Notes: generated from the sequence alone by a model not told the origin. A stretch of DNA of 56,475 bases from Gammaproteobacteria bacterium (GCA_013697045.1 JACCXJ010000080.1:1-56475), one strand, 5' to 3'. Positions 732 to 22,447 are shown, numbered from the stretch's first letter. Made by a program: numbers and translations.

Positions 732-921
732 CAGAGTTTGTGAAAAAACCGTCGCGAGCGAAGGGAGGTCGCGTTCCGCCGGAGCGCAACCGGAGTGTAT
801 GTTGAAATACATGAGGATTCCGAGCACCGCCGGGAAGCCAGGGCCAGGGAGCGGCCCTGTTTGGCGCGCCGAGGACGCAGCGCGAGATCCCGAGCGCAGT
901 AGGTTTTTTCACAACTCTCAG
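732..921. repeat. MITE-like element, longest copy (190 bp) of the GTGAAAAAACC-terminus family
   Basis: Left end CAGAGTTTGTGAAAAAACC (732-750) is the inverted complement of right end GGTTTTTTCACAACTCTCAG (902-921). Internal 23-nt module GTCGCGAGCGAAGGGAGGTCGCG recurs at 32178-32200. The right end recurs exactly at 22548-22567. Confidence 0.8.
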
Positions 922-9930: not shown

Positions 9931-9976
9931 ATCATCTCCTTAGTTGGTGGTCACCACTTCAACCGGCGCCGCGTCG

Positions 9977-10360
9977 TCACGAGGACCGGCGCGCGTCCCG
10001 CTCGAACCAGTTGTCACGGTAGTAATGCCGCCCGCGCAAGAGGGCCCAGGCCGAAGAGGCCAGATAGGCAAAAGGGAACAACGCCCCGAACCGCTCCGTT
10101 TGGCGCACGTGAACGCGCTCATGCGCTCGCGTTCGCTCGAGGCAATCCGCATCACGGCCGAGCACGACGTGCCCGAGCGTCATCGCGTGGGCGCGCACGG
10201 GTGTCACGCTCAAAAGCAGGCGAGCAACCCCCCCGTGACATTCGAGGACACCGGTGTGCGTCCGTGCCCGCCCGCCGGAGAAGAGCGATAAGGCCACGGC
10301 CATGAGCCCGAAGAGCGTCACCGGTGAGGCCCAGAGATAGCGCAACACACGGCCCGCCAT
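9977..10360 (-). CDS. hypothetical small membrane protein with HExxH-like motif
   Basis: Start taken at MAGRVLRYLWASPVTLFGLMAVALSL (hydrophobic helix). AHERVHVRQTERFG motif. Family not recognised. Confidence 0.45.
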   Translation of the reverse strand: MAGRVLRYLWASPVTLFGLMAVALSLFSGGRARTHTGVLECHGGVARLLLSVTPVRAHAMTLGHVVLGRDADCLERTRAHERVHVRQTERFGALFPFAYLASSAWALLRGRHYYRDNWFERDARRSS

Positions 10361-10463
10361 TCCCGCCAGCCCCTGCTCAGCGTGCTGTCGTCCGCGACGC
10401 CCTCGCTTTCTCTTACCAACTGCCGTAAGTAGTCGCCCCCACTGATAAAAAGGCCGGCGCTCA

Positions 10464-10721
10464 TCAAACAGCAAACACCGCCGGATCCACCCCGAAGCGC
10501 TCACCCAGCGCCCGGACCTGGCGCACATTCAATTCCAGGTTGCCGGCCAGGATTTCCGATAGCACGCCCTGGTTGCCCACCTCGGGCAGGTCGGACTGGG
10601 TCAGACCATGGGCCTGCATGAGATAGCGTAATGCCTCGACCGGTTCCGCCTCTCCCCAGGGGTGAGCCCGGGCCTCATACTCCTCCAGCCGATCGCCGAT
10701 CAACTCGACCAGATCCCACAA
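10464..10721 (-). pseudogene. higA: HigA-like HTH antitoxin, 5'-truncated; no higB
   Basis: LWDLVELIGDRLEEYE...ALRYLMQAHGLTQSDLPEVGNQGVLSEILAGNLELNVRQVRALGERFGVDPAVF parallels the C-terminal roughly 88 aa of E. coli HigA. No ATG and no homologous N-terminal roughly 45 aa upstream. Confidence 0.55.
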
Positions 10722-10859
10722 GGGACTCGTGGATGCCGGCCAGAGATAACGAGTGCAAAGACACCACGCGCCCCGTGACCCAGGCCGACGTGCGCGAGCT
10801 GGCCAGCAAGGTCGAGTACGTGCGCGGTAAGGACGAATGTCCCTAACCAGGCGATTCTG

Positions 10860-13622
10860 GTGGCCCGTTCCGGCTTTGCCAACAATGCCCATGCGGTCGC
10901 GAGGACGCTCTTGGTGCAACTCCGCACCTACGACGCACTGCTGCGCTCGCTGGCCGATCTCCCGGCCTGCATCGAAGCCGGGCTGCGCGCCTTCCAGGGC
11001 AGCGCCCTGGAACGTCTGTACGTCGAGCAGGACGTGCTGCTCGACGAGGAGCTGGAGGCGCCGCAACGCCGTGCCCTGGTGAAGTCGGTCGATGACTGGC
11101 TGGCAGAGCCCGGCCAGGGCTTTCTGGCGCTGCTCGGAGATTTCGGCACCGGCAAGACCAGCTTTGCGAAGCGCTACGCGGCCGCGCTCGCGGCCCTGGC
11201 TAAGGGCTCCCCGGAAGAGCACCGGGTGCCTGTCCTCATCGATCTACGCGAGGCGCGCTCCACCACCGTGAGCCTGGAGAACATCCTCACCCACCGCTTC
11301 CAGTCGCTCTCGCCCCGGCCTTTCAATCCGCAAGCCCTCTTGCACTTGAACCGCGAGGGGCATCTGGTGCTCATCTTCGACGGCTTCGACGAGATGCTGG
11401 GCTACTCCGATCCGGGCCAGTATGCGGAGAACCTGCGTCAGATCCTGCGCGCGGCCGAGGGACGCGCCAAGGTGGTCCTGACTTGCCGCACGCACTACTT
11501 CCGCGATCGGCCCGAGGCGCTCAAGAAACCTGACCAAGCAGCCGGCGGTCGTCTCGACCACCGGCGCCACACAACTGTGGGCCGGGCCGGCACCCGGGTC
11601 TTTTATCTGTGCGACTTCAGCGATGCGCAGCTCGAGGATTTCCTGCAACGCGCGCTGCCGCCGCCGGCCGACTGGAGGCAGTTCCGCAAGGCGATCCGCC
11701 GTACCTACAACCTGGAGGACCTGGCCACCCGGCCGTTCCTGCTCGACCTGATCGTCAAGACGCTGCCCCGGTTGCAAGCCCGCGAGGGCACGGTGACCAT
11801 CGCCGATCTGTACGAGGCCTATTGCGAGGAGTGGTTCCGGCACACCGACTTTCGCCTGACCTTGGTACGCGAGCACAAGGTGGCGCTGGTCGAATACCTG
11901 GCGCGACTGGTGTGGGAGTCGCCGGACACGCGCGTGCACTACGAGGTGCTGGCGGGCAAGGCCCAGGAATTTTTTGGTGAGCGCCCGCTGACGCCCTTCG
12001 AGAAGGAGAAGATCGACTACGAGGTGCGCACCGCCCTTTTCCTCAACCGCGACGCACGGGGCTACTACTCGTTCATCCACCGGTCCTTCTTGGAGTTCTT
12101 CGTCGCGCGCACCCTGCGCTCCGGACTGGCGTCGGGAGATCCCGATGCGCTGGACCTCAGGCGGCTGACCCGCGAGGTGGCGTTCTTCCTGGAATTCTGG
12201 GACGAGTCCGGCCACATCCCCGAACGCTGTGGCGCGGTCCTCAGCGTGCCCTACCGCCGGCGCGTGAGCGAGAACGGCCTCTTGCTGCTCTACTGGCACG
12301 CCTGTGCGCGTCTCGGGCCACTCGCGGGCGCGCCCGAGGCGCTCGATCCGGCTGCGCTGGCTGCCGCCATCCGGCAGCACTGGCGGGAGTCGTCGATCGA
12401 GCCGAGCCGCTTCCACTTGGAGGGGGCCGAGCTGGCGGGCGCGCACATCCCTGGCATCTGGCTGGACGGCGCATCGCTCGCCGGGGCCGACCTATCGCGG
12501 GCCGGCTTGCGCGCAGCAAGCCTCGGCGGCGCGAAACTTTGCAAGGCGCGTTTGGAGTTCGCGGACGCACATGCGGCCGTGTTCGGCGGGGCGCAGTTGC
12601 TCGACGCCGATCTGAATCATCTGGACGCCCGTGCGGCCGTGCTCTCGGGCGCCGATCTGTCGGCCGCGGATCTGAGCTTCGCCAAGCTGGCCGGGGCCGA
12701 TCTGCGCGACGTGCAACTCGACGGCGCGTGTCTCACCGGAGCGGGGTTGCTCTGTGCCGAGGGCCTGCTGCCCGCGGTCGTGCTGGACCGCTTCGCCGGC
12801 CGCAGCACCACGGGCGAGACCGCACTGGATCTGGTGATCCAACGCGGTCACGCGGAGCCTGTCCGATGCGTCGCCTGGAGCCCGGACGCCCGGGTCGTCG
12901 CATCGGCCTCGACCGACCACACCGTCAAGCTCTGGGATACGGTCAGCGGTACCCTGCTGCGGACGCTCACCGGTCACAAGGGCGAGGTCTGGTCCGTAGC
13001 CTGGGACGGGCGCGGCGAGCGGCTGGCCTCGGGGTCTGCCGACCACACGGTCAAGCTCTGGGACACGGCCAGCGGGACCCTTCTGTGGACCCTCACGGGC
13101 CATGAGTACGGGGTCGGGTCCGTGGCCTGGGACACGCGCGGGGAGCGGCTGGCCTCGGGGTCTGTCGACCATACGGTCAAGCTCTGGGACGCAGAGAGGG
13201 GCCAGTTGCTCTGGACCCTCACGGGCCACGAGCAATGGGTCAGGTGCGTGGCCTGGGACGCGCGCGGGGAACGGCTAGCCTCGGGGTCTGTCGACCATAC
13301 GGTCAAGCTCTGGGACGCAGAGAGGGGCCAGTTGCTCCGGACCCTCACGGGCCACGAGGACGGAGTCAGGTCCGTAGCCTGGGCCGGGCGCGAGGAACGG
13401 CTGGCCTCGGGGTCCGGCGACCACACGGTAAAGCTCTGGGACGCAGAGAGCGGCCAGTTGCTCCGGACCCTCACGGGCCACGAGCAATGGGTCAGGTCCG
13501 TGGCCTGGGACGCGCGCGGCGAGAGGCTAGCCTCGGGTTCACATGACCGGACGGTCAAGCTCTGGGATGCAACGAGTGGCCAGTTGCTCCGAACCCTCAC
13601 CGGTCACGAGGCTGGGTCTTAA
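10860..13622 (+). CDS. NACHT (STAND) NTPase with pentapeptide repeats and WD40 repeats; leading 920-codon ORF of a gene that continues in other frames
   Basis: Walker A GDFGTGKTS (11136-11162), Walker B LVLIFDGFDEM (11364-11396), pentapeptide repeats at 12411-12760, WD40 blades from 12846. Premature TAA at 13620-13622 in mid-blade. Confidence 0.85.
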   Translation: MARSGFANNAHAVARTLLVQLRTYDALLRSLADLPACIEAGLRAFQGSALERLYVEQDVLLDEELEAPQRRALVKSVDDWLAEPGQGFLALLGDFGTGKTSFAKRYAAALAALAKGSPEEHRVPVLIDLREARSTTVSLENILTHRFQSLSPRPFNPQALLHLNREGHLVLIFDGFDEMLGYSDPGQYAENLRQILRAAEGRAKVVLTCRTHYFRDRPEALKKPDQAAGGRLDHRRHTTVGRAGTRVFYLCDFSDAQLEDFLQRALPPPADWRQFRKAIRRTYNLEDLATRPFLLDLIVKTLPRLQAREGTVTIADLYEAYCEEWFRHTDFRLTLVREHKVALVEYLARLVWESPDTRVHYEVLAGKAQEFFGERPLTPFEKEKIDYEVRTALFLNRDARGYYSFIHRSFLEFFVARTLRSGLASGDPDALDLRRLTREVAFFLEFWDESGHIPERCGAVLSVPYRRRVSENGLLLLYWHACARLGPLAGAPEALDPAALAAAIRQHWRESSIEPSRFHLEGAELAGAHIPGIWLDGASLAGADLSRAGLRAASLGGAKLCKARLEFADAHAAVFGGAQLLDADLNHLDARAAVLSGADLSAADLSFAKLAGADLRDVQLDGACLTGAGLLCAEGLLPAVVLDRFAGRSTTGETALDLVIQRGHAEPVRCVAWSPDARVVASASTDHTVKLWDTVSGTLLRTLTGHKGEVWSVAWDGRGERLASGSADHTVKLWDTASGTLLWTLTGHEYGVGSVAWDTRGERLASGSVDHTVKLWDAERGQLLWTLTGHEQWVRCVAWDARGERLASGSVDHTVKLWDAERGQLLRTLTGHEDGVRSVAWAGREERLASGSGDHTVKLWDAESGQLLRTLTGHEQWVRSVAWDARGERLASGSHDRTVKLWDATSGQLLRTLTGHEAGS

Positions 13623-14075
13623 CCGTGGCCTGGGCCGCGCGCGGGGAGCGGCTGGCCTCGGGGTCTCGGGACCACACGGTCAAGCTCTGGGACGAGCGAG
13701 TGGCCAGTTGCTCGGGACCCTCACGGGTCACGGGGGCTGGGTCAGGTCCGTGGCGTGGGACGCGCGCGGGGAACGGCTGGCCTCGGGGTCCGGCGACCAC
13801 ACGGTAAAGCTCTGGGATGCGGGGAGCGAGACCCTGCTGTGGACGCTCAGGGGCCACGAGGACTGGATCAGGTCCGTGGCCTGGGACACGCGCGGCGACC
13901 AACTGGCCTCGGGGTCTTCTGACCAGACAGTCAGGCTCTGGGACGCGACCAGCGGACAGTTGCTGCGCACGCTACCGGGACACGACGCCGGCGTCATGTC
14001 CATAGCCTGGGACCCACACGGCGAGCGGCTGGCCGTCGGCTGTGCCGACGGCAGCCTCTGGATCTGGGACGTGGC
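12846..14075 (+). repeat. ten tandem 126-bp (42-codon) WD40 coding repeats
   Basis: Unit GH-x3-V-x-SVAWDxRGERLASGSxDHTVKLWDxxSGxLLxTLT. For example, 13153-13211 is identical to 13279-13337 (59 nt), and 80 of 81 nt match when extended. Confidence 0.9.
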
Positions 14076-14351
14076 GGCCGATCCGCCGCGCCCGCTCGTG
14101 CGTCTCTACGCCGGGCCCGACGGCGGTGTCTGGCGGTCACGCCCGATGGCCTCGTGGCTGCTAGCGACCCTCGGGCCCTGGATTTGGTACGCTTCGCCGA
14201 CCGCTGGGCCCTTTACGATGCCAGCGATGTCCCGAGCCGGGTCATCGGCTTCGAGCAGATCGCCGAATACCTGCGCGGCCCCGCGACATCACGCCGGAAG
14301 CGCTCGAATCCGCCTAAGGGCGGGGAAAAGAGGGACCGGAATGCCAGGTAA
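13625..14351 (+). pseudogene. displaced 3' part of the NACHT-WD40 gene (frames 2, then 1, then 0)
   Basis: Blade 7 continues in frame 2 (AWAARGERLASGSRDHTVKLWD). Blades 8-10 are in frame 1 (GHGGWVRSVAWDARGERLASGS...). The C-terminal tail LAVTPDGLVAASDPRALDLVRFADRWALYDASDVP is back in frame 0, ending at 14351. Confidence 0.75.
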
Positions 14352-14710
14352 GGTAACCCTTGCTGCGTTCCCGTCTGGGAAAGTCATGCTGAGCGCTTTT
14401 CACAGGGATTAAATCCTGCGGCGTCGCAGCGGGCTTACTCTCGCACGCGTAACTCACCTTACTCATTAATACGCCAAATATGCAGCCCGCTCTCAAGCAT
14501 CCAAATTTCATCCTCACCACTCACAATCTGAACGGTACTTCTCACGAACAGGCACCGAATAGCCAACGGATTTTCTAGCTTCCCGTTGAGCATCGTTGTC
14601 GTTGTCTATGTCGTCAAATAGTTCCTCAAAATAGTCTTCACGCAACGGGGCACCCTTGGTCGGTCGGTATACCGCACGGAAGAATGAATGGGTTAAAGGG
14701 GTAGAGTAGA

Positions 14711-14769
14711 GGGCAGGCAGTGCCTGCCCTCCCTCATCAAGCCGTGCATGCGGTTCTCCCGCACACGGC
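14711..14769. repeat. REP-like hairpins just upstream of the RAYT remnant
   Basis: Palindrome GGGCAGGCA-G-TGCCTGCCC (14711-14729) and imperfect hairpin GCCGTGCATGCGG..CCGCACACGGC (14741-14769). Confidence 0.5.
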
Positions 14770-14784
14770 TTTCCGATGTTCTTC

Positions 14785-15006
14785 ATGCCGAGGCATGCGC
14801 CGAGCGCCAGCCTGCCACCGCAGGAACCTAGAGCAGAGACGGTGCCCAGGCTTATCATCTCGCTGGAACGGCGCTACCTGCAGTACATCTACAGAAACTA
14901 CCGCCGCACCGGCACGCTATGGGACAGCCGCTACAAGTCCTCACTTATCCAGGCCGAGACTTATCTCCTCACCTATGGTTCGGTGATACGTCCATCTTCC
15001 TCATAG
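14785..15006 (+). pseudogene. REP-associated tyrosine transposase (RAYT, IS200/IS605-like Y1) remnant
   Basis: SLERRYLQYIYRNYRRTGTLWDSRYKSSLIQAETYLLT matches the conserved RAYT core (GRRYVQYINR.Y.RTGTLWEGRYKS). The N-terminal HUH region and the C-terminus are missing. Confidence 0.65.
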
Positions 15007-15200
15007 ATCGAGGCGGGATGCTCCCCTGGACCGTCCCGTCCGCCACCCCTTGCTGTTCTATCATCACAATCCCTGTAGGGCTTGTGGGGGGTCTGTGGGC
15101 AACAGTGCGGCCTTCCCAGTTGATGGAAAACGCGCGGATTTCTGTCCTGATCAAATCGAGAACCGCCAAGCGGACTGACTCCATCAGCGTTTTGAAGGCT

Positions 15201-15809
15201 TCACGTCCACAGTTCCCGGACGTCAAGACTGAATCCCCTGAGCAGCGGCTCGCCCGACACAGTAGCCGGGTTGTCGAGGCAGTCAACAGCAACCTCCGGG
15301 CGGTGCACATAGACTTTCTTCTCGACAGGATCGATCAGCCAGCCCATCTCGGCGCCGTTGTCGATGTATTCCTGCATTTTGTTCTGTAAGTCACCGAGCG
15401 AATCGGTCTCAGAGCGAAGCTCAACGACGAAGTCGGGGCACAGTGGCGGAAACTGCTTGCGTTCGATTTCGGTGAGGGCATTCCAGTGCGAGAACCTGAC
15501 CCAAGCGAGATCGGGTGACCGCTTCGCGCCATTGGGGAGCGTGAACCCGGTAGATGAGTCGAAACCCACTCCGGTGCCATCGGCCTTGGCCCACGCGTAA
15601 AAGGCCCCGGTCAGACTGAAGTTGCGCTTTCCGGTCTCTCCTCCGGTTGGTGGCATAATGATGATGTCTCCATCACTCGTACGCTCGATGCTCCAGTCTC
15701 GATTCGCCTGACAGAACTCGAAGAAGTCCTCATCGCTAAGTCTTCTCAGCACCGGGCCGAAGTGAATCACGAAGGGATTGGACTCTGTTGGTCTAAGTGA
15801 AATGCTCAT
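15201..15809 (-). CDS. Uma2 family (DUF820) PD-(D/E)xK-type putative endonuclease
   Basis: ATG 15809 (MSISLRPTESNPFVIHFGP...). DWSIERTSDGDIIIMPP, PDLAWV, PDFVVELRSETD, EYIDNGAEMGWLIDP are typical Uma2 blocks. Confidence 0.8.
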   Translation of the reverse strand: MSISLRPTESNPFVIHFGPVLRRLSDEDFFEFCQANRDWSIERTSDGDIIIMPPTGGETGKRNFSLTGAFYAWAKADGTGVGFDSSTGFTLPNGAKRSPDLAWVRFSHWNALTEIERKQFPPLCPDFVVELRSETDSLGDLQNKMQEYIDNGAEMGWLIDPVEKKVYVHRPEVAVDCLDNPATVSGEPLLRGFSLDVRELWT

Positions 15810-15855
15810 AGATCCTCCGCCGCACGGATTTGATACAGCGTGATTATAACACCGC

Positions 15856-15944
15856 GGGATAAAGGGGTCGGAGTGAATTTTGTGACCTTGATGCAACACG
15901 ATGATGAGCATGCTGCCCAAAATTCACTCCGACCCCTTTATCCC
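15856..15944. repeat. REPIN-like perfect inverted repeat (27-bp arms, 35-nt spacer)
   Basis: GGGATAAAGGGGTCGGAGTGAATTTTG (15856-15882) is the exact reverse complement of 15918-15944. It sits between the Uma2 start and the stop of the small ORF at 15946. Confidence 0.9.
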
Positions 15945-15945
15945 A

Positions 15946-16101
15946 CTAGCGAAACAGCACCAGCGCCTTCTCCAGCGTGATATAGATCCCCCAGCCCAGC
16001 GGTATACCGACGAGCGTCCAGGCGATCGCGACCAGGAACCAGCTTGCTGGGCTCGGGCGTTCCATGGGGCTCTGGCTGCCCCGGTCGGCGCGTGGTGACA
16101 T
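15946..16101 (-). CDS. small membrane protein (51 aa) downstream of the OFA transporter; resembles MFS-transporter small subunits
   Basis: Not in the ORF track (under 60 aa). AGGGAG Shine-Dalgarno then ATG 16101. MSPRADRGSQSPMERPSPASWFLVAIAWTLVGIPLGWGIYITLEKALVLFR has one TM helix. It begins 15 nt after the transporter stop. Confidence 0.6.
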   Translation of the reverse strand: MSPRADRGSQSPMERPSPASWFLVAIAWTLVGIPLGWGIYITLEKALVLFR

Positions 16102-16115
16102 GGTCTCCCTCTGGC

Positions 16116-17603
16116 TCAGGCCTTGGCGGGCTCGTGTGCGAGCCGGCGCTCGGTCTCCAGCTCGAGATCGCTCATGTAATAGCGCTGCGCCACGGGCCGC
16201 ATGAGCAGGTTGCAGACGAGGCCCACGAGCAACAGCGAGGCGAGCACGTAGAGGGTCACGTTATAGGCCTGGTGGACGGGCACGCCGCGTTCGATCTGGA
16301 ACTCGCGGATGTAGTTGACGAGGACCGGGCCGAGGACCCCGGCGGTGGACCATGCCGTCAGTAACCGCCCATGGATCGCCCCCACGAACTGGGTGCCGAA
16401 GATGTCGGCCAGATAGGCGGGGATGGTGGCGAACCCGCCTCCGTACATGGTGAGGATGATGCAGAAGAGCGCCACGAACAGCGCCACGTGGCCGATCTGC
16501 CCGGCATAGGGGGCCGAGGCGTAGAGCGCCATCCCGAGCGCGAAGAACAGGAAGTAGGTGGTCTTGCGCCCGATGAAGTCGGACATCGAGGCCCAGCCGA
16601 TCCGGCCGAGGATATTGAAGAGGCTCAGGAGGCCGGTGAAACCCGCCGCGATCAACGCCACGTCCTTCTTCTCCTCCGGGGACAGCTCGGCGAGTGACAG
16701 GTCGAGCCCCACGAGGCCGCCGCCGAAGACCTCCTGCAACATCGGCGAGGCCATACCGATGACCCCGATCCCGGCGCTGACGTTCATGCACAAGACCCCC
16801 CAAAGCATCCAGAACTGCGGGGTGTTGGGGGCGCGGTAGAGATGCACGTGCCGGTTCGTGATCATGCTCGTGCGTGTCGCGGACGGCTCCCATCCCGACG
16901 GTTTCCAGCCCGTGGGCGGCACGCGATAGGCGAAGGCCCCGCACAGCATGGCGATGAAATAGACGATGCCGAGGGTGACGAAGGTCTCCCACACACCCAC
17001 CGATGTCGGGGTCGCGTAATGCTGCATCAGCAACTCGGCGAGCGGTGCCCCGATCATGGCGCCGCCGCCGAAGCCCGCGATCGCCATGCCGGTCGCCATC
17101 CCACGGCGGTCCGGGAACCATTTGATGAGCGTGGACACGGGCGAGATGTAGCCGAGCCCGAGCCCGCAACCGCCGATGATGCCCGAGCCCAGCCACAGCA
17201 GGCGGATCTCGTGGAGGTAGACCCCGAGCGCCGAGATCAATAAACCTCCGCCCCAGCACCAGGCCGCGACCACCCCCGCCTTGCGTGGCCCGGCGTGCTC
17301 CAGCCAACGGCCGAAGACGGCGGCCGAGGAGCCGAGGTACACGAAGAACAGGGTGTACATCCACCCGAGCGTGCTGATCTTCCAGTCGCAGCCGTGCGCG
17401 ATGATGTGCTCGAACCACCCGAGATCGGGCGGGCACGGGAGGGGTTCGGTGACACCGAGCGCCTTGCTGAGCGGCAGCCAGAACACGCTGAAGCCGTAGG
17501 CCATGCCGATGGAGAGATGGATGGCCAGGGCTGCCGGCGGCACCAACCAGCGGTTGAAGCCGACCTTGGCGATGGTGCGTTCTTTCGCGAGCAGACTAGA
17601 CAC
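16116..17603 (-). CDS. MFS transporter, oxalate/formate antiporter (OFA) family
   Basis: MSSLLAKERTIAKVGFNRWLVPPAALAIHLSIGMAYGFSVFWLPL; 12 hydrophobic segments; 495 aa. Confidence 0.85.
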   Translation of the reverse strand: MSSLLAKERTIAKVGFNRWLVPPAALAIHLSIGMAYGFSVFWLPLSKALGVTEPLPCPPDLGWFEHIIAHGCDWKISTLGWMYTLFFVYLGSSAAVFGRWLEHAGPRKAGVVAAWCWGGGLLISALGVYLHEIRLLWLGSGIIGGCGLGLGYISPVSTLIKWFPDRRGMATGMAIAGFGGGAMIGAPLAELLMQHYATPTSVGVWETFVTLGIVYFIAMLCGAFAYRVPPTGWKPSGWEPSATRTSMITNRHVHLYRAPNTPQFWMLWGVLCMNVSAGIGVIGMASPMLQEVFGGGLVGLDLSLAELSPEEKKDVALIAAGFTGLLSLFNILGRIGWASMSDFIGRKTTYFLFFALGMALYASAPYAGQIGHVALFVALFCIILTMYGGGFATIPAYLADIFGTQFVGAIHGRLLTAWSTAGVLGPVLVNYIREFQIERGVPVHQAYNVTLYVLASLLLVGLVCNLLMRPVAQRYYMSDLELETERRLAHEPAKA

Positions 17604-21919: not shown

Positions 21920-21988
21920 CGATTCGGCCCTCCCGGCGGGACCGGGGTGGGTAGGATCGTTCTGGGTGATGGGAGCGGGGACTAGCCC

Positions 21989-22447
21989 TCAGGCGTCGCC
22001 TCGGACACGGAGCTTGGTGGCGATGAGGTCTTTATGCGGCATGTGGATGAGATCCGCGATCTTACGGATAACGTGCTCCTCGAACTGGTGCAGGCTGCCG
22101 TCGGCATAGCCCACCCGCCACAGGTGCTCGATGAGCGTCACCTTCTCGATGGGGCTGAAGGCGCGGTTGATCTGGGTGGTGAACTGGTAGAGGTCCGTGG
22201 CGGCGTGTGCCTCCTCCTCCGCCAGCGCGATCAGCGCCGTGGCCTGTGCCGGGTCGAGGTCGAAACGCTCCGCGATCGAGATCAGGACCTGCGCCCGCTC
22301 GCCCTCGGCAATAGCGTCATCCATGCGCACGACCTCCGCGAACAAGGCGGCGACCGCGATCCGCACCCGTTGCTCCTCGTCCCGGTACGCGTCGCGGCCA
22401 CCCGGCGCGATGTTCTCCTCGAAGAATGACCTGATCGCCTCCAGCAT
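21989..22447 (-). CDS. TerB family tellurite-resistance-like protein
   Basis: MLEAIRSFFEENIAP...VAALFAEVVRMDDAIAEGER...HLWRVGYADGSLHQFEEHVIRKIADLI. Confidence 0.8.
   Translation of the reverse strand: MLEAIRSFFEENIAPGGRDAYRDEEQRVRIAVAALFAEVVRMDDAIAEGERAQVLISIAERFDLDPAQATALIALAEEEAHAATDLYQFTTQINRAFSPIEKVTLIEHLWRVGYADGSLHQFEEHVIRKIADLIHMPHKDLIATKLRVRGDA

What the first reader, a model, noticed from the sequence alone, without database searches (positions are those of the whole stretch)
10860..14351. Effector-less NACHT-pentapeptide-WD40 NLR-like STAND NTPase inside a decaying accessory island
The sequence shows a Walker A (GDFGTGKTS) and Walker B (LVLIFDGFDEM) NACHT-type NTPase. It is followed by about 115 aa of pentapeptide repeats (12411-12760), ten WD40 blades (12846-14075) and a short C-terminal tail. 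Only about 90 aa precede the P-loop, so no recognisable N-terminal effector domain is present. Bacterial NACHT/NLR-like proteins are established anti-phage sensors that usually carry an effector domain. A pentapeptide (DNA-mimic-type) solenoid between the NTPase and a WD40 sensor, with no effector, is an architecture I cannot assign to a described system. The gene sits between core genes (pgl-gnd side and an OFA transporter). Its neighbours are a truncated higA, a RAYT remnant, a Uma2 nuclease and a REPIN, and GC looks lower by eye from about 14.35 to 15.95 kb. This is the best candidate in the window for an accessory or defence-type module.
Basis: partly seen in the sequence, partly recalled or inferred. 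Interest (0 to 1): 0.72.

Follow-up and report, generated by a model that had tools for sequence, protein, structure and literature searches.

The report
Dead Mrr-NACHT-pentapeptide-WD40 defence-type gene
The gene is the broken remnant of an ordinary bacterial NLR-like protein whose nuclease "weapon" domain was cut off by a deletion, so it is a decayed copy of a known kind and not a new effector-less design.

Summary
NACHT passes Pfam's cut-off (PF05729, 40.5 bits against 26.7) and carries Walker A GDFGTGKTS and the NACHT signature DGFDE. It is followed by a pentapeptide beta-helix, ten WD40 blades and a conserved tail.

The "effector-less" architecture is an artefact of gene decay. All close relatives (55-64% identity, mostly Acidobacteriota MAGs) carry an N-terminal Mrr_cat restriction-endonuclease domain, and some add a ParA-like ATPase. 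The window keeps only the C-terminal half of that domain, from 10751 (ECKD...) in another reading frame. This remnant abuts a 5'-truncated higA.

The gene also carries six indels: +1 at 10838, +1 at 11529, -13 at 11581, and -1 at 13611, 13694 and 14134. There is a premature stop at 13620. Four other assemblies of the same population share the indels and the truncation junction. An 84%-identical sister copy confirms the lesion pair inside NACHT.

The surrounding roughly 6 kb is mobile-element debris: a higA remnant, a group II intron fragment, a transposase fragment, Uma2 and a hairpin repeat. Part of it is lower in GC.

Verdict: a pseudogene of a REase-NACHT-repeat bacterial NLR-like family, a known kind. 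Interest is low.

The parts
10464..10721 (-). 5'-truncated higA-type antitoxin remnant (85 codons). It lacks about 49 N-terminal codons and the higB partner.
   Evidence: Best plasmid match (57% identity, E=7e-22) covers the C-terminal 83 aa of a 133-aa HTH protein directly downstream of an annotated HigB toxin. Pfam gives only a weak HTH_3 hit, E=0.008.
10751..10935 (+). Remnant of the Mrr_cat (PD-(D/E)xK) nuclease effector domain, C-terminal half only. Codons 10751-10837 are in frame 2 (ECKD...GKDE). After an extra T at 10838 the reading continues in frame 0 (VPNQAILVARSGFANNAHAVA...).
   Evidence: tblastn of P0012, P0002 and P0007 gives a 31-aa hit at 10751-10843 in frame 2 (55-68% identity), then the frame-3 HSP from 10839/10842. 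Three-frame view. Family alignment of the domain. The repaired protein aligns from P0156 residue 85. No homology to the first ~84 residues anywhere in the window.
10860..13622 (+). Longest surviving open frame (920 aa, annotated as MBA2591553.1). Its GTG 'start' lies inside the Mrr_cat remnant, and it ends at a premature TAA (13620-13622) in WD40 blade 7.
11127..11531 (+). NACHT nucleotide-binding domain: Walker A 11136-11162 (GDFGTGKTS) and Walker B with the NACHT signature at 11364-11396 (LVLIFDGFDEM).
   Evidence: Pfam PF05729, aa 90-224, 40.5 bits against cut-off 26.7. Motif coordinates. The D[GAS]hDE signature is defined in Kibby et al..
11529..11582 (+). Compensating lesion pair inside the NACHT module: +1 (extra C at 11529) and -13 (at 11581-11582). 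About 18 codons are read out of frame and five conserved residues (EELQD) are lost.
   Evidence: Frame 1 reads LTKQPAVVSTTGATQLW, matching the family motif EVVSTQGATQLY. The 84%-identical P0168 reads EALKNLTRQPGVVSNATQLWEELQDRAGTRVFYLCDF in a single frame. Coordinates.
11583..12410 (+). Rest of the NACHT module: helical and winged-helix parts, including the conserved His motif FIHRSFLEFF at 12072-12101.
   Evidence: Invariant or near-invariant columns H530, S532, E535, F536, F537 of alignment A1. Coordinates. AlphaFold model of P0002 has pLDDT of about 80-95 over this region.
12411..12760 (+). Pentapeptide-repeat beta-helix (about 115 aa).
   Evidence: Pfam PF00805, E=3e-14. NCBIfam pentapeptide families at aa 520-630. 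The P0002 model shows one short strand every five residues, pLDDT above 90.
12846..14075 (+). Ten WD40 blades in 126-nt tandem units, broken by -1 deletions at 13611-13612 and 13694-13695.
   Evidence: Pfam WD40, 10 stretches, E=7e-117. TRF period 126, 9 copies, 81% matches. Three-frame translation and repair.
14076..14351 (+). Conserved C-terminal tail (...PPRPLVRLY...ALDLVRFADRWALYD...), broken by a -1 deletion at 14134-14135.
   Evidence: The tail is conserved in P0002, P0003, P0156 and P0158. Frame switch shown.
14701..14773 (-). Orphan group II intron fragment (domains V-VI).
   Evidence: Rfam RF00029, 46.5 bits against gathering score 40, E=6e-7.
14850..14990 (+).
   Evidence: tblastn against plasmids gives 45-56% identity over about 43 aa, E down to 1e-8, mostly under genes annotated 'transposase'. 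No Pfam, NCBIfam or PDB hit, so the RAYT subtype is unverified.
15201..15809 (-). Uma2-family (DUF820) putative endonuclease gene, apparently intact. It lies in the lower-GC patch.
   Evidence: Pfam PF05685, E=1.3e-42, profile positions 2-171 of 172. Called as a 202-aa gene in the other assemblies.
15856..15944 (.). Perfect 27-nt inverted repeat with a 35-nt spacer (REPIN-like hairpin). It sits at the right edge of the variable region.
   Evidence: It is the only copy in the window. Synteny with the 92%-identical relative L087 starts at 15950.

Best explanation
Window 10751-14351 is a pseudogene of a single-gene, NLR-like STAND protein. The ancestral architecture was Mrr_cat nuclease, then NACHT NTPase, then a pentapeptide beta-helix, a WD40 propeller and a short conserved tail.

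How intact relatives most likely work (inferred from characterised bacterial NACHT and Avs proteins, not shown here):
- The repeat region binds an infection-derived ligand.
- The NACHT module then exchanges nucleotide and oligomerises.
- Oligomerisation brings the N-terminal PD-(D/E)xK nuclease domains together, so they cut DNA and abort the infection.

The copy in this window cannot do this (shown):
- A deletion removed the gene's 5' end, including the first ~84 codons with the upstream catalytic acidic residues, together with the 5' end of the divergently oriented higA (and its higB).
- Six further indels scramble the nuclease remnant, a conserved stretch of the NACHT module, two WD40 blades and the C-terminal tail.
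- A stop codon ends the longest frame in blade 7.

The gene sits in a roughly 6-kb stretch of mobile-element debris between core genes (pgl-gnd and an MFS/OFA transporter). The host is an uncultured proteobacterium. The nearest intact relatives come from Acidobacteriota-type MAGs, which suggests horizontal acquisition followed by decay (inferred).
For: Domain identity.

Effector in relatives:
- Pfam Mrr_cat is above cut-off in P0002 (aa 33-144, E=4e-8) and P0007 (aa 317-428, E=7e-10).
- PF04471 is precomputed for many hits and for the intact 1330-aa single ORF P0156.
- The catalytic FE...D...ECK motif is conserved across the family.

Remnant and truncation:
- tblastn finds the Mrr_cat remnant at 10751-10843 in frame 2, and nothing further upstream anywhere in the 56-kb window.
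- The fully repaired 1200-aa translation aligns in one HSP to P0156 residues 85-1283 at 55% identity.
- In an exhaustive search of 1.84 billion representatives, hits aligning from the query's first residues nearly all start at target residue ~100-120 or ~400. The query therefore begins where relatives have 100-400 more residues.

Lesions:
-.
- The internal NACHT lesion pair is confirmed directly by the 84%-identical P0168, which reads through in one frame.
- Truncation junction and indels are identical in three other assemblies aligned across the gene (JGI 3300012684, GCA_020063725.1, GCA_030155825.1), with one substitution in about 4 kb; these differ only in where, or whether, one WD40 unit is assembled. 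GCA_030859115.1 carries the same truncated 878-aa product.
- The flanking genes gnd, pgl and the MFS transporter are intact.

Sister-lineage decay: the P0168 contig is itself split into three overlapping gene calls.

Context.

Literature: REase effectors (bNACHT25 is Mrr-like), pentapeptide sensors and beta-propeller sensors are described for bacterial NACHT proteins.
Against: - No read-level data were available. The other assemblies may partly derive from the same or similar samples, so they are not fully independent proof that the indels are real.
- No PADLOC defence model matches the NACHT part of this gene or of its intact relatives. The NCBIfam HyoA hit is far below cut-off.
- Anti-phage function of the intact family rests on analogy alone.
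- Neighbourhoods of the intact or near-intact relatives examined are not defence islands.
- Expression of the surviving 920-aa frame cannot be excluded.
Confidence: 0.85

Rival explanations
1. One reading: a functional, naturally effector-less NACHT-pentapeptide-WD40 protein, representing a new NLR-like architecture (for example a sensor-only or decoy NLR).
For: A 920-aa frame remains open from 10860 and is annotated as a protein in GenBank. A few distant family members in the exhaustive search align from near their own N-terminus (for example P0233).
Against: The frame starts inside a recognisable Mrr_cat remnant whose upstream part lies in another frame. About 18 codons inside the NACHT module are out of frame and five conserved residues are deleted. 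The frame ends in WD40 blade 7, with the rest of the propeller and the conserved tail in other frames. No plus-strand promoter-like site was found upstream. A sister lineage carries different frameshifts.
Confidence: 0.04
2. The gene is intact in the living organism, and the frameshifts and the 5' junction are sequencing or assembly errors in a GC-rich, repeat-rich region.
For: The WD40 units are 126-nt repeats at about 81% identity. The assemblies disagree on the number and placement of one unit, so the repeat region is hard to assemble.
Against: Three of the six indels (10838, 11529, 11581) and the truncation junction lie outside the repeats. All lesions are identical in the other assemblies aligned. 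Neighbouring genes of similar GC content are intact. The -13 deletion is not a homopolymer-type error.
Confidence: 0.06
3. The ancestral family is not an anti-phage system. It would instead be a chromosomal signalling, regulatory or other conflict module, as proposed for STAND proteins of multicellular or social bacteria, so the remnant is not a 'defence' relic.
For: In three Acidobacteriota genomes the homologue sits in one conserved neighbourhood (DsbH-like, MOSC, CN_hydrolase, Lactamase_B_2), not in a defence island. The neighbours of P0156 are ordinary genes. No PADLOC model matches the NACHT module or names the family.
Against: The family carries a nuclease effector with conserved catalytic residues. 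That is the architecture of tested anti-phage bNACHT proteins such as bNACHT25. The distribution is patchy: none of 80 gnd loci or 80 transporter loci of relatives has the gene alongside. Repeated pseudogenisation fits an accessory conflict gene.
Confidence: 0.2

Closest known systems
Bacterial NLR-related NACHT proteins (bNACHT; Kibby et al., bioRxiv 10.1101/2022.07.19.500537), in particular bNACHT25 with its Mrr-like REase effector
   Same: N-terminal Mrr-type restriction-endonuclease effector, central NACHT with the D[GAS]hDE signature, and a C-terminal repeat sensor. That survey lists pentapeptide and beta-propeller repeats among sensor types.
   Different: No close sequence relationship was shown, and PADLOC NLR-like models do not hit. 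The sensor here combines a pentapeptide helix with WD40. The window copy is a pseudogene lacking half of the effector.
Avs (antiviral STAND) proteins with nuclease effectors
   Same: Single-polypeptide design of effector, STAND NTPase and repeat sensor. The presumed mechanism is ligand-triggered oligomerisation that activates a PD-(D/E)xK nuclease (my own knowledge of the published work; the family is mentioned).
   Different: Avs NTPase domains belong to STAND clades other than NACHT, and their sensors are mostly TPR-like. No Avs model in PADLOC matches.
Apaf-1 (STAND NTPase with a WD40 sensor)
   Same: The whole-chain Foldseek match of the P0002 model to Apaf-1 (3j2t, 3shf, 3sfz) covers about 990 aligned columns: NTPase followed by a WD40 propeller.
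   Different: Apaf-1 is an AP-ATPase, not a NACHT protein. It has a CARD effector and no pentapeptide helix. TM-scores are low (about 0.2) because the domain arrangement differs.
Fungal HET-E/NWD and cyanobacterial NACHT-WD40 proteins with highly similar internal repeats
   Same: NACHT followed by tandem, near-identical WD40 units. Here the units are 126 nt at 81% identity, with a unit-number difference between assemblies. Cyanobacterial NACHT-pentapeptide(-WD40) proteins appear among the more distant hits.
   Different: N-terminal domains differ (HET, or NACHT N-terminal helical domains such as PF22736). Identity is only 25-31%.

Membership tests
NACHT clade of STAND NTPases | Pfam PF05729 match above the gathering score | tested here: met
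   40.5 bits against 26.7, aa 90-224.
NACHT clade of STAND NTPases | Walker A GxxxxGK[ST], and Walker B followed by the D[GAS]hDE signature | tested here: met
   GDFGTGKTS at 11136-11162 and LVLIFDGFDEM at 11364-11396. The signature is as defined in Kibby et al..
NACHT clade of STAND NTPases | Winged-helix extension with the conserved histidine | tested here: met
   FIHRSFLEFF at 12072-12101. The matching columns H530, S532, E535, F536 and F537 are invariant or near-invariant in alignment A1.
NACHT clade of STAND NTPases | Uninterrupted NTPase module | tested here: not met
   The +1/-13 lesion pair at 11529/11581 destroys the conserved ...GATxLYxEI... stretch.
Bacterial NLR-related anti-phage proteins (bNACHT) | Tripartite layout: N-terminal effector, NACHT, C-terminal sensor | tested here: not met
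   Met in the relatives P0002, P0156 and P0007. In the window the effector is truncated at 10751 and the sensor is frameshifted.
Bacterial NLR-related anti-phage proteins (bNACHT) | Match to curated defence-system models | tested here: not met
   For the window protein, PADLOC hits only a WD40-containing model (HEAT-ARM_XIII). For the relatives it also hits ZorD-type Mrr and PDC-M28B (the ParA-like part). NCBIfam HyoA scores 16 bits against a cut-off of 1200.
Bacterial NLR-related anti-phage proteins (bNACHT) | Protection against phage that depends on NTP binding | not testable with these tools
   Needs phage-challenge experiments with an intact relative.
Mrr_cat (PF04471) PD-(D/E)xK nuclease domain | Complete domain with the upstream acidic residues plus the (D/E)xK motif | tested here: not met
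   The window retains only ECK onwards. There is no Pfam hit on the repaired remnant (protein 3). Relatives have the full FE...D...ECK motif.
Pentapeptide repeat (PF00805) | Profile match above cut-off | tested here: met
   52.7 bits against 20.2.
WD40 beta-propeller | Tandem WD40 repeats | tested here: met
   10 stretches, E=7e-117 on the repaired translation. The reading frame is broken twice within the array.
HigBA toxin-antitoxin (neighbouring remnant) | Full-length HigA next to a HigB toxin | tested here: not met
   Only the C-terminal ~83 of ~133 residues are present, and there is no higB.

The most novel reading that the evidence does not exclude
The surviving 920-aa frame (Mrr tail, damaged NACHT, pentapeptide helix, six WD40 blades) is still expressed. 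It would act as an effector-less sensor, decoy or dominant-negative partner for another STAND protein.

Separately, and outside this window, the intact family is an untested defence family that current defence-finder models miss. Its architecture is an optional ParA-like ATPase, then Mrr_cat, NACHT, pentapeptide repeats and WD40.
Probability: 0.04. Interest if true: 0.5.

Novelty: new member of a known kind. Interest (0 to 1): 0.15.

Why it matters
This mostly matters as a correction. An apparently new "effector-less NLR" turns out to be a truncated, frameshifted copy of a nuclease-armed bacterial NACHT protein.

It also shows a general point: unusual domain architectures in MAG annotations should be checked against relatives for lost termini before being called new.

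A minor positive outcome concerns the intact family, Mrr_cat-NACHT-pentapeptide-WD40, sometimes with an extra ParA-like ATPase. It is large (675 clusters at 50% identity with E<=1e-30) and current PADLOC models do not name it. Intact members such as P0156 or P0002 would therefore be reasonable candidates for experimental defence screens.

Tried and rejected
- Sequence search of the PDB with the Mrr-NACHT part of P0002 found nothing.
- Foldseek with the whole P0002 model was swamped by WD40 propellers. Only the Apaf-1 hits were informative.
- The synteny test for island presence or absence did not resolve. The 80 closest gnd loci in GTDB genomes (at most 90% identity) and the 80 closest transporter loci in metagenomes never had both flanks together. 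Only the breakpoints could be located: 9942 on the left and 15950 on the right.
- The RAYT identity of the transposase fragment could not be verified with Pfam, NCBIfam or PDB. Only similarity to genes annotated 'transposase' was found.
- A search for remnants of the ParA-like domain, or of the ~296-aa upstream partner gene seen in Acidobacteriota loci, found nothing in the window.
- Programmed frameshifting was considered and rejected. There are six indels of different kinds, one of 13 nt, plus a truncation, and a sister copy carries different lesions.
- A functional link between the NACHT gene and Uma2 was considered and rejected. They differ in GC content (0.70 against about 0.57), are separated by intron and transposase debris, and none of the related loci examined pairs them.
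Full report
**1. What is in the sequence**

A frame opens at GTG 10860 and runs 920 codons to a TAA at 13620-13622. The WD40 repeats then continue in frame 2 (13613-13693), in frame 1 (13696 to about 14133), and again in frame 0 to the stop at 14351.

On the repaired translation:
- Pfam finds NACHT at aa 90-224 (PF05729, 40.5 bits against a cut-off of 26.7).
- Pfam finds Pentapeptide (PF00805, 52.7 bits against 20.2) and ten WD40 stretches (E=7e-117).
- Walker A is GDFGTGKTS at 11136-11162.
- Walker B is LVLIFDGFDEM at 11364-11396. It contains the NACHT-specific D[GAS]hDE signature defined by Kibby et al..
- The winged-helix histidine motif FIHRSFLEFF lies at 12072-12101.

The domain observation is therefore correct and far beyond chance.

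**2. The "missing effector" is a truncated Mrr nuclease**

A search with the non-WD40 part found an identical protein and then relatives at 55-63% identity. These come mostly from Thermoanaerobaculia or other Acidobacteriota MAGs, and many carry PF04471 (Mrr_cat, restriction endonuclease).
- I confirmed Mrr_cat above cut-off in P0002 (aa 33-144, E=4e-8) and P0007 (aa 317-428, E=7e-10). P0007 has an additional N-terminal ParA/MinD-like P-loop domain.
- In the family alignment the nuclease motif FE...D(I/V)...ECK(D) is conserved, so the effector is probably active in relatives.
- The window's annotated N-terminus, VARSGFANNAHAVA, aligns to the last strand and helix of this domain.
- tblastn finds the preceding 29-31 residues (ECKDTTRPVTQADVRELASKVEYVRGKDE) at 10751-10843 in a different frame. 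An extra T at 10838 separates the two frames.
- Upstream of 10751 the homology stops. Nothing resembling the first ~84 residues, the ParA-like domain, or the upstream partner gene seen in some relatives exists anywhere in the 56-kb window.
- The fully repaired 1200-aa translation aligns in one HSP to residues 85-1283 of P0156 at 55% identity. P0156 is an intact 1330-aa single ORF on a 412-kb contig with precomputed Mrr_cat, NACHT, Pentapeptide and WD40.
- An exhaustive HMMER search of 1.84 billion representatives found 675 clusters at E<=1e-30. Hits aligning from the query's first residues nearly all start at target residue ~100-120 (Mrr only) or ~400 (ParA-like plus Mrr).

**3. More lesions**

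Inside the NACHT module the in-frame translation (PDQAAGGRLDHRRHTTVG) has no similarity to relatives. Frame 1, in contrast, reads LTKQPAVVSTTGATQLW, which matches the family's ...EVVSTQGATQLY....

An 84%-identical fragment from another metagenome, P0168, reads EALKNLTRQPGVVSNATQLWEELQDRAGTRVFYLCDF in a single frame. This proves that the window carries a +1 insertion at 11529 and a 13-nt deletion at 11581.

Together with the -1 deletions at 13611, 13694 and 14134, this makes six indels plus the 5' truncation.

P0168 itself shifts frame after QRALPPP, and its 1.76-kb contig carries three overlapping gene calls. A sister lineage has therefore decayed independently.

**4. Are the lesions real?**

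The window is a contig of a MAG labelled 'Gammaproteobacteria bacterium' (protein MBA2591553.1). The same locus occurs in JGI metagenome 3300012684 and in the assemblies GCA_020063725.1, GCA_030859115.1 and GCA_030155825.1.

Three of these loci (JGI 3300012684, GCA_020063725.1, GCA_030155825.1) were aligned with the window over 10400-14450. They differ by one substitution and by where, or whether, one 126-nt WD40 unit is assembled. The truncation junction and the six indels are the same in each.

The adjacent genes pgl, gnd and the MFS/OFA transporter are intact.

Caveat: I could not inspect reads, and the assemblies may not be fully independent.

**5. Context**

Left of the gene, on the minus strand (10464-10721), lies the C-terminal ~83 residues of a HigA-type antitoxin. 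Its best plasmid homologue is a 133-aa HTH protein immediately downstream of an annotated HigB toxin. The 5' ends of higA and of the divergent NACHT gene are thus both missing at one junction (10721/10751). One deletion is the simplest explanation (inference).

Right of the gene:
- GC drops to 0.54-0.60 in the sliding windows spanning about 14250-16250.
- An orphan group II intron domain V-VI fragment lies at 14701-14773 on the minus strand (Rfam, 46.5 bits against 40).
- A transposase fragment lies at 14850-14990.
- An apparently intact Uma2 gene follows.
- A perfect 27-nt inverted repeat lies at 15856-15944.

A 92%-identical relative (L087) is collinear with the window from 15950 onward and unrelated to its left. 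More distant relatives lose homology at 9942, just beyond gnd. None of 160 related gnd or transporter loci has the NACHT gene, Uma2 or the opposite flank nearby. The stretch 9.94-15.95 kb is therefore lineage-specific, but a clean empty-site comparison was not obtainable.

**6. How the intact family probably works**

This section is inference. The AlphaFold model of P0002 (mean pLDDT 76.5) shows:
- an alpha/beta nuclease-like N-domain;
- the NTPase with helical and winged-helix parts;
- a regular beta-helix with one strand per five residues;
- a WD40 propeller.

Its whole-chain PDB matches are Apaf-1. Tested bacterial NACHT proteins include bNACHT25, which has an Mrr-like REase effector, and that survey lists pentapeptide and beta-propeller repeats as sensor types.

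By analogy, the repeats would sense an infection cue. The NACHT module would oligomerise on nucleotide exchange, and the clustered Mrr domains would cleave DNA.

Points against a firm 'defence' label:
- No PADLOC model names the family.
- The neighbourhoods of relatives are not defence islands.

**7. Verdict**

The interpretation 'effector-less, undescribed architecture' is not supported. The locus is a pseudogene of a REase-NACHT-repeat NLR-like protein, a known kind, lying in a patch of mobile-element debris. Interest is low.

Noticed in passing
window 14701-14773 (-): Orphan group II intron domain V-VI fragment (Rfam RF00029, 46.5 bits against gathering score 40). No intron-encoded reverse transcriptase is evident beside it.
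   Followed up: partly
window 12913-14039; L001-L004: The WD40 blades are 126-nt tandem units at about 81% identity. Other assemblies of the same population have one unit fewer or place it elsewhere. This is either real copy-number variation or assembly collapse.
   Followed up: partly
P0168 (JGI 3300067032, 1.76-kb contig; no DNA available): An 84%-identical sister copy of the NACHT gene is also fragmented, but by different frameshifts. This suggests long-standing independent decay in related lineages.
   Followed up: partly
L167 3527-8031, L168, L169, L170: Acidobacteriota homologues carry an extra N-terminal ParA/MinD-like (KGGVGR) ATPase. They are preceded by a ~290-aa unannotated gene whose stop overlaps their start, within a conserved neighbourhood (DsbH-like, MOSC, CN_hydrolase, Lactamase_B_2). 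Several of these copies are also split into fragments.
   Followed up: partly
P0157 (1825 aa): A relative in which Mrr_cat-NACHT-pentapeptide is followed by what look by eye like NRPS condensation, adenylation and carrier modules instead of WD40. This is either an odd fusion or a chimeric gene call.
   Followed up: no
window 9977-10360 (-): A small ORF between gnd and the higA remnant contains an HExxH-like motif (HERVH). It has no Pfam or NCBIfam match, is called as a 123-127-aa gene in the other assemblies, and lies inside the lineage-specific stretch.
   Followed up: no
window 733-777 and L087 435-479: A 45-nt exact match between a distant part of the window and the point where L087 stops being collinear with window 21988-22423. 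This could be a repeat element or a rearrangement breakpoint.
   Followed up: no
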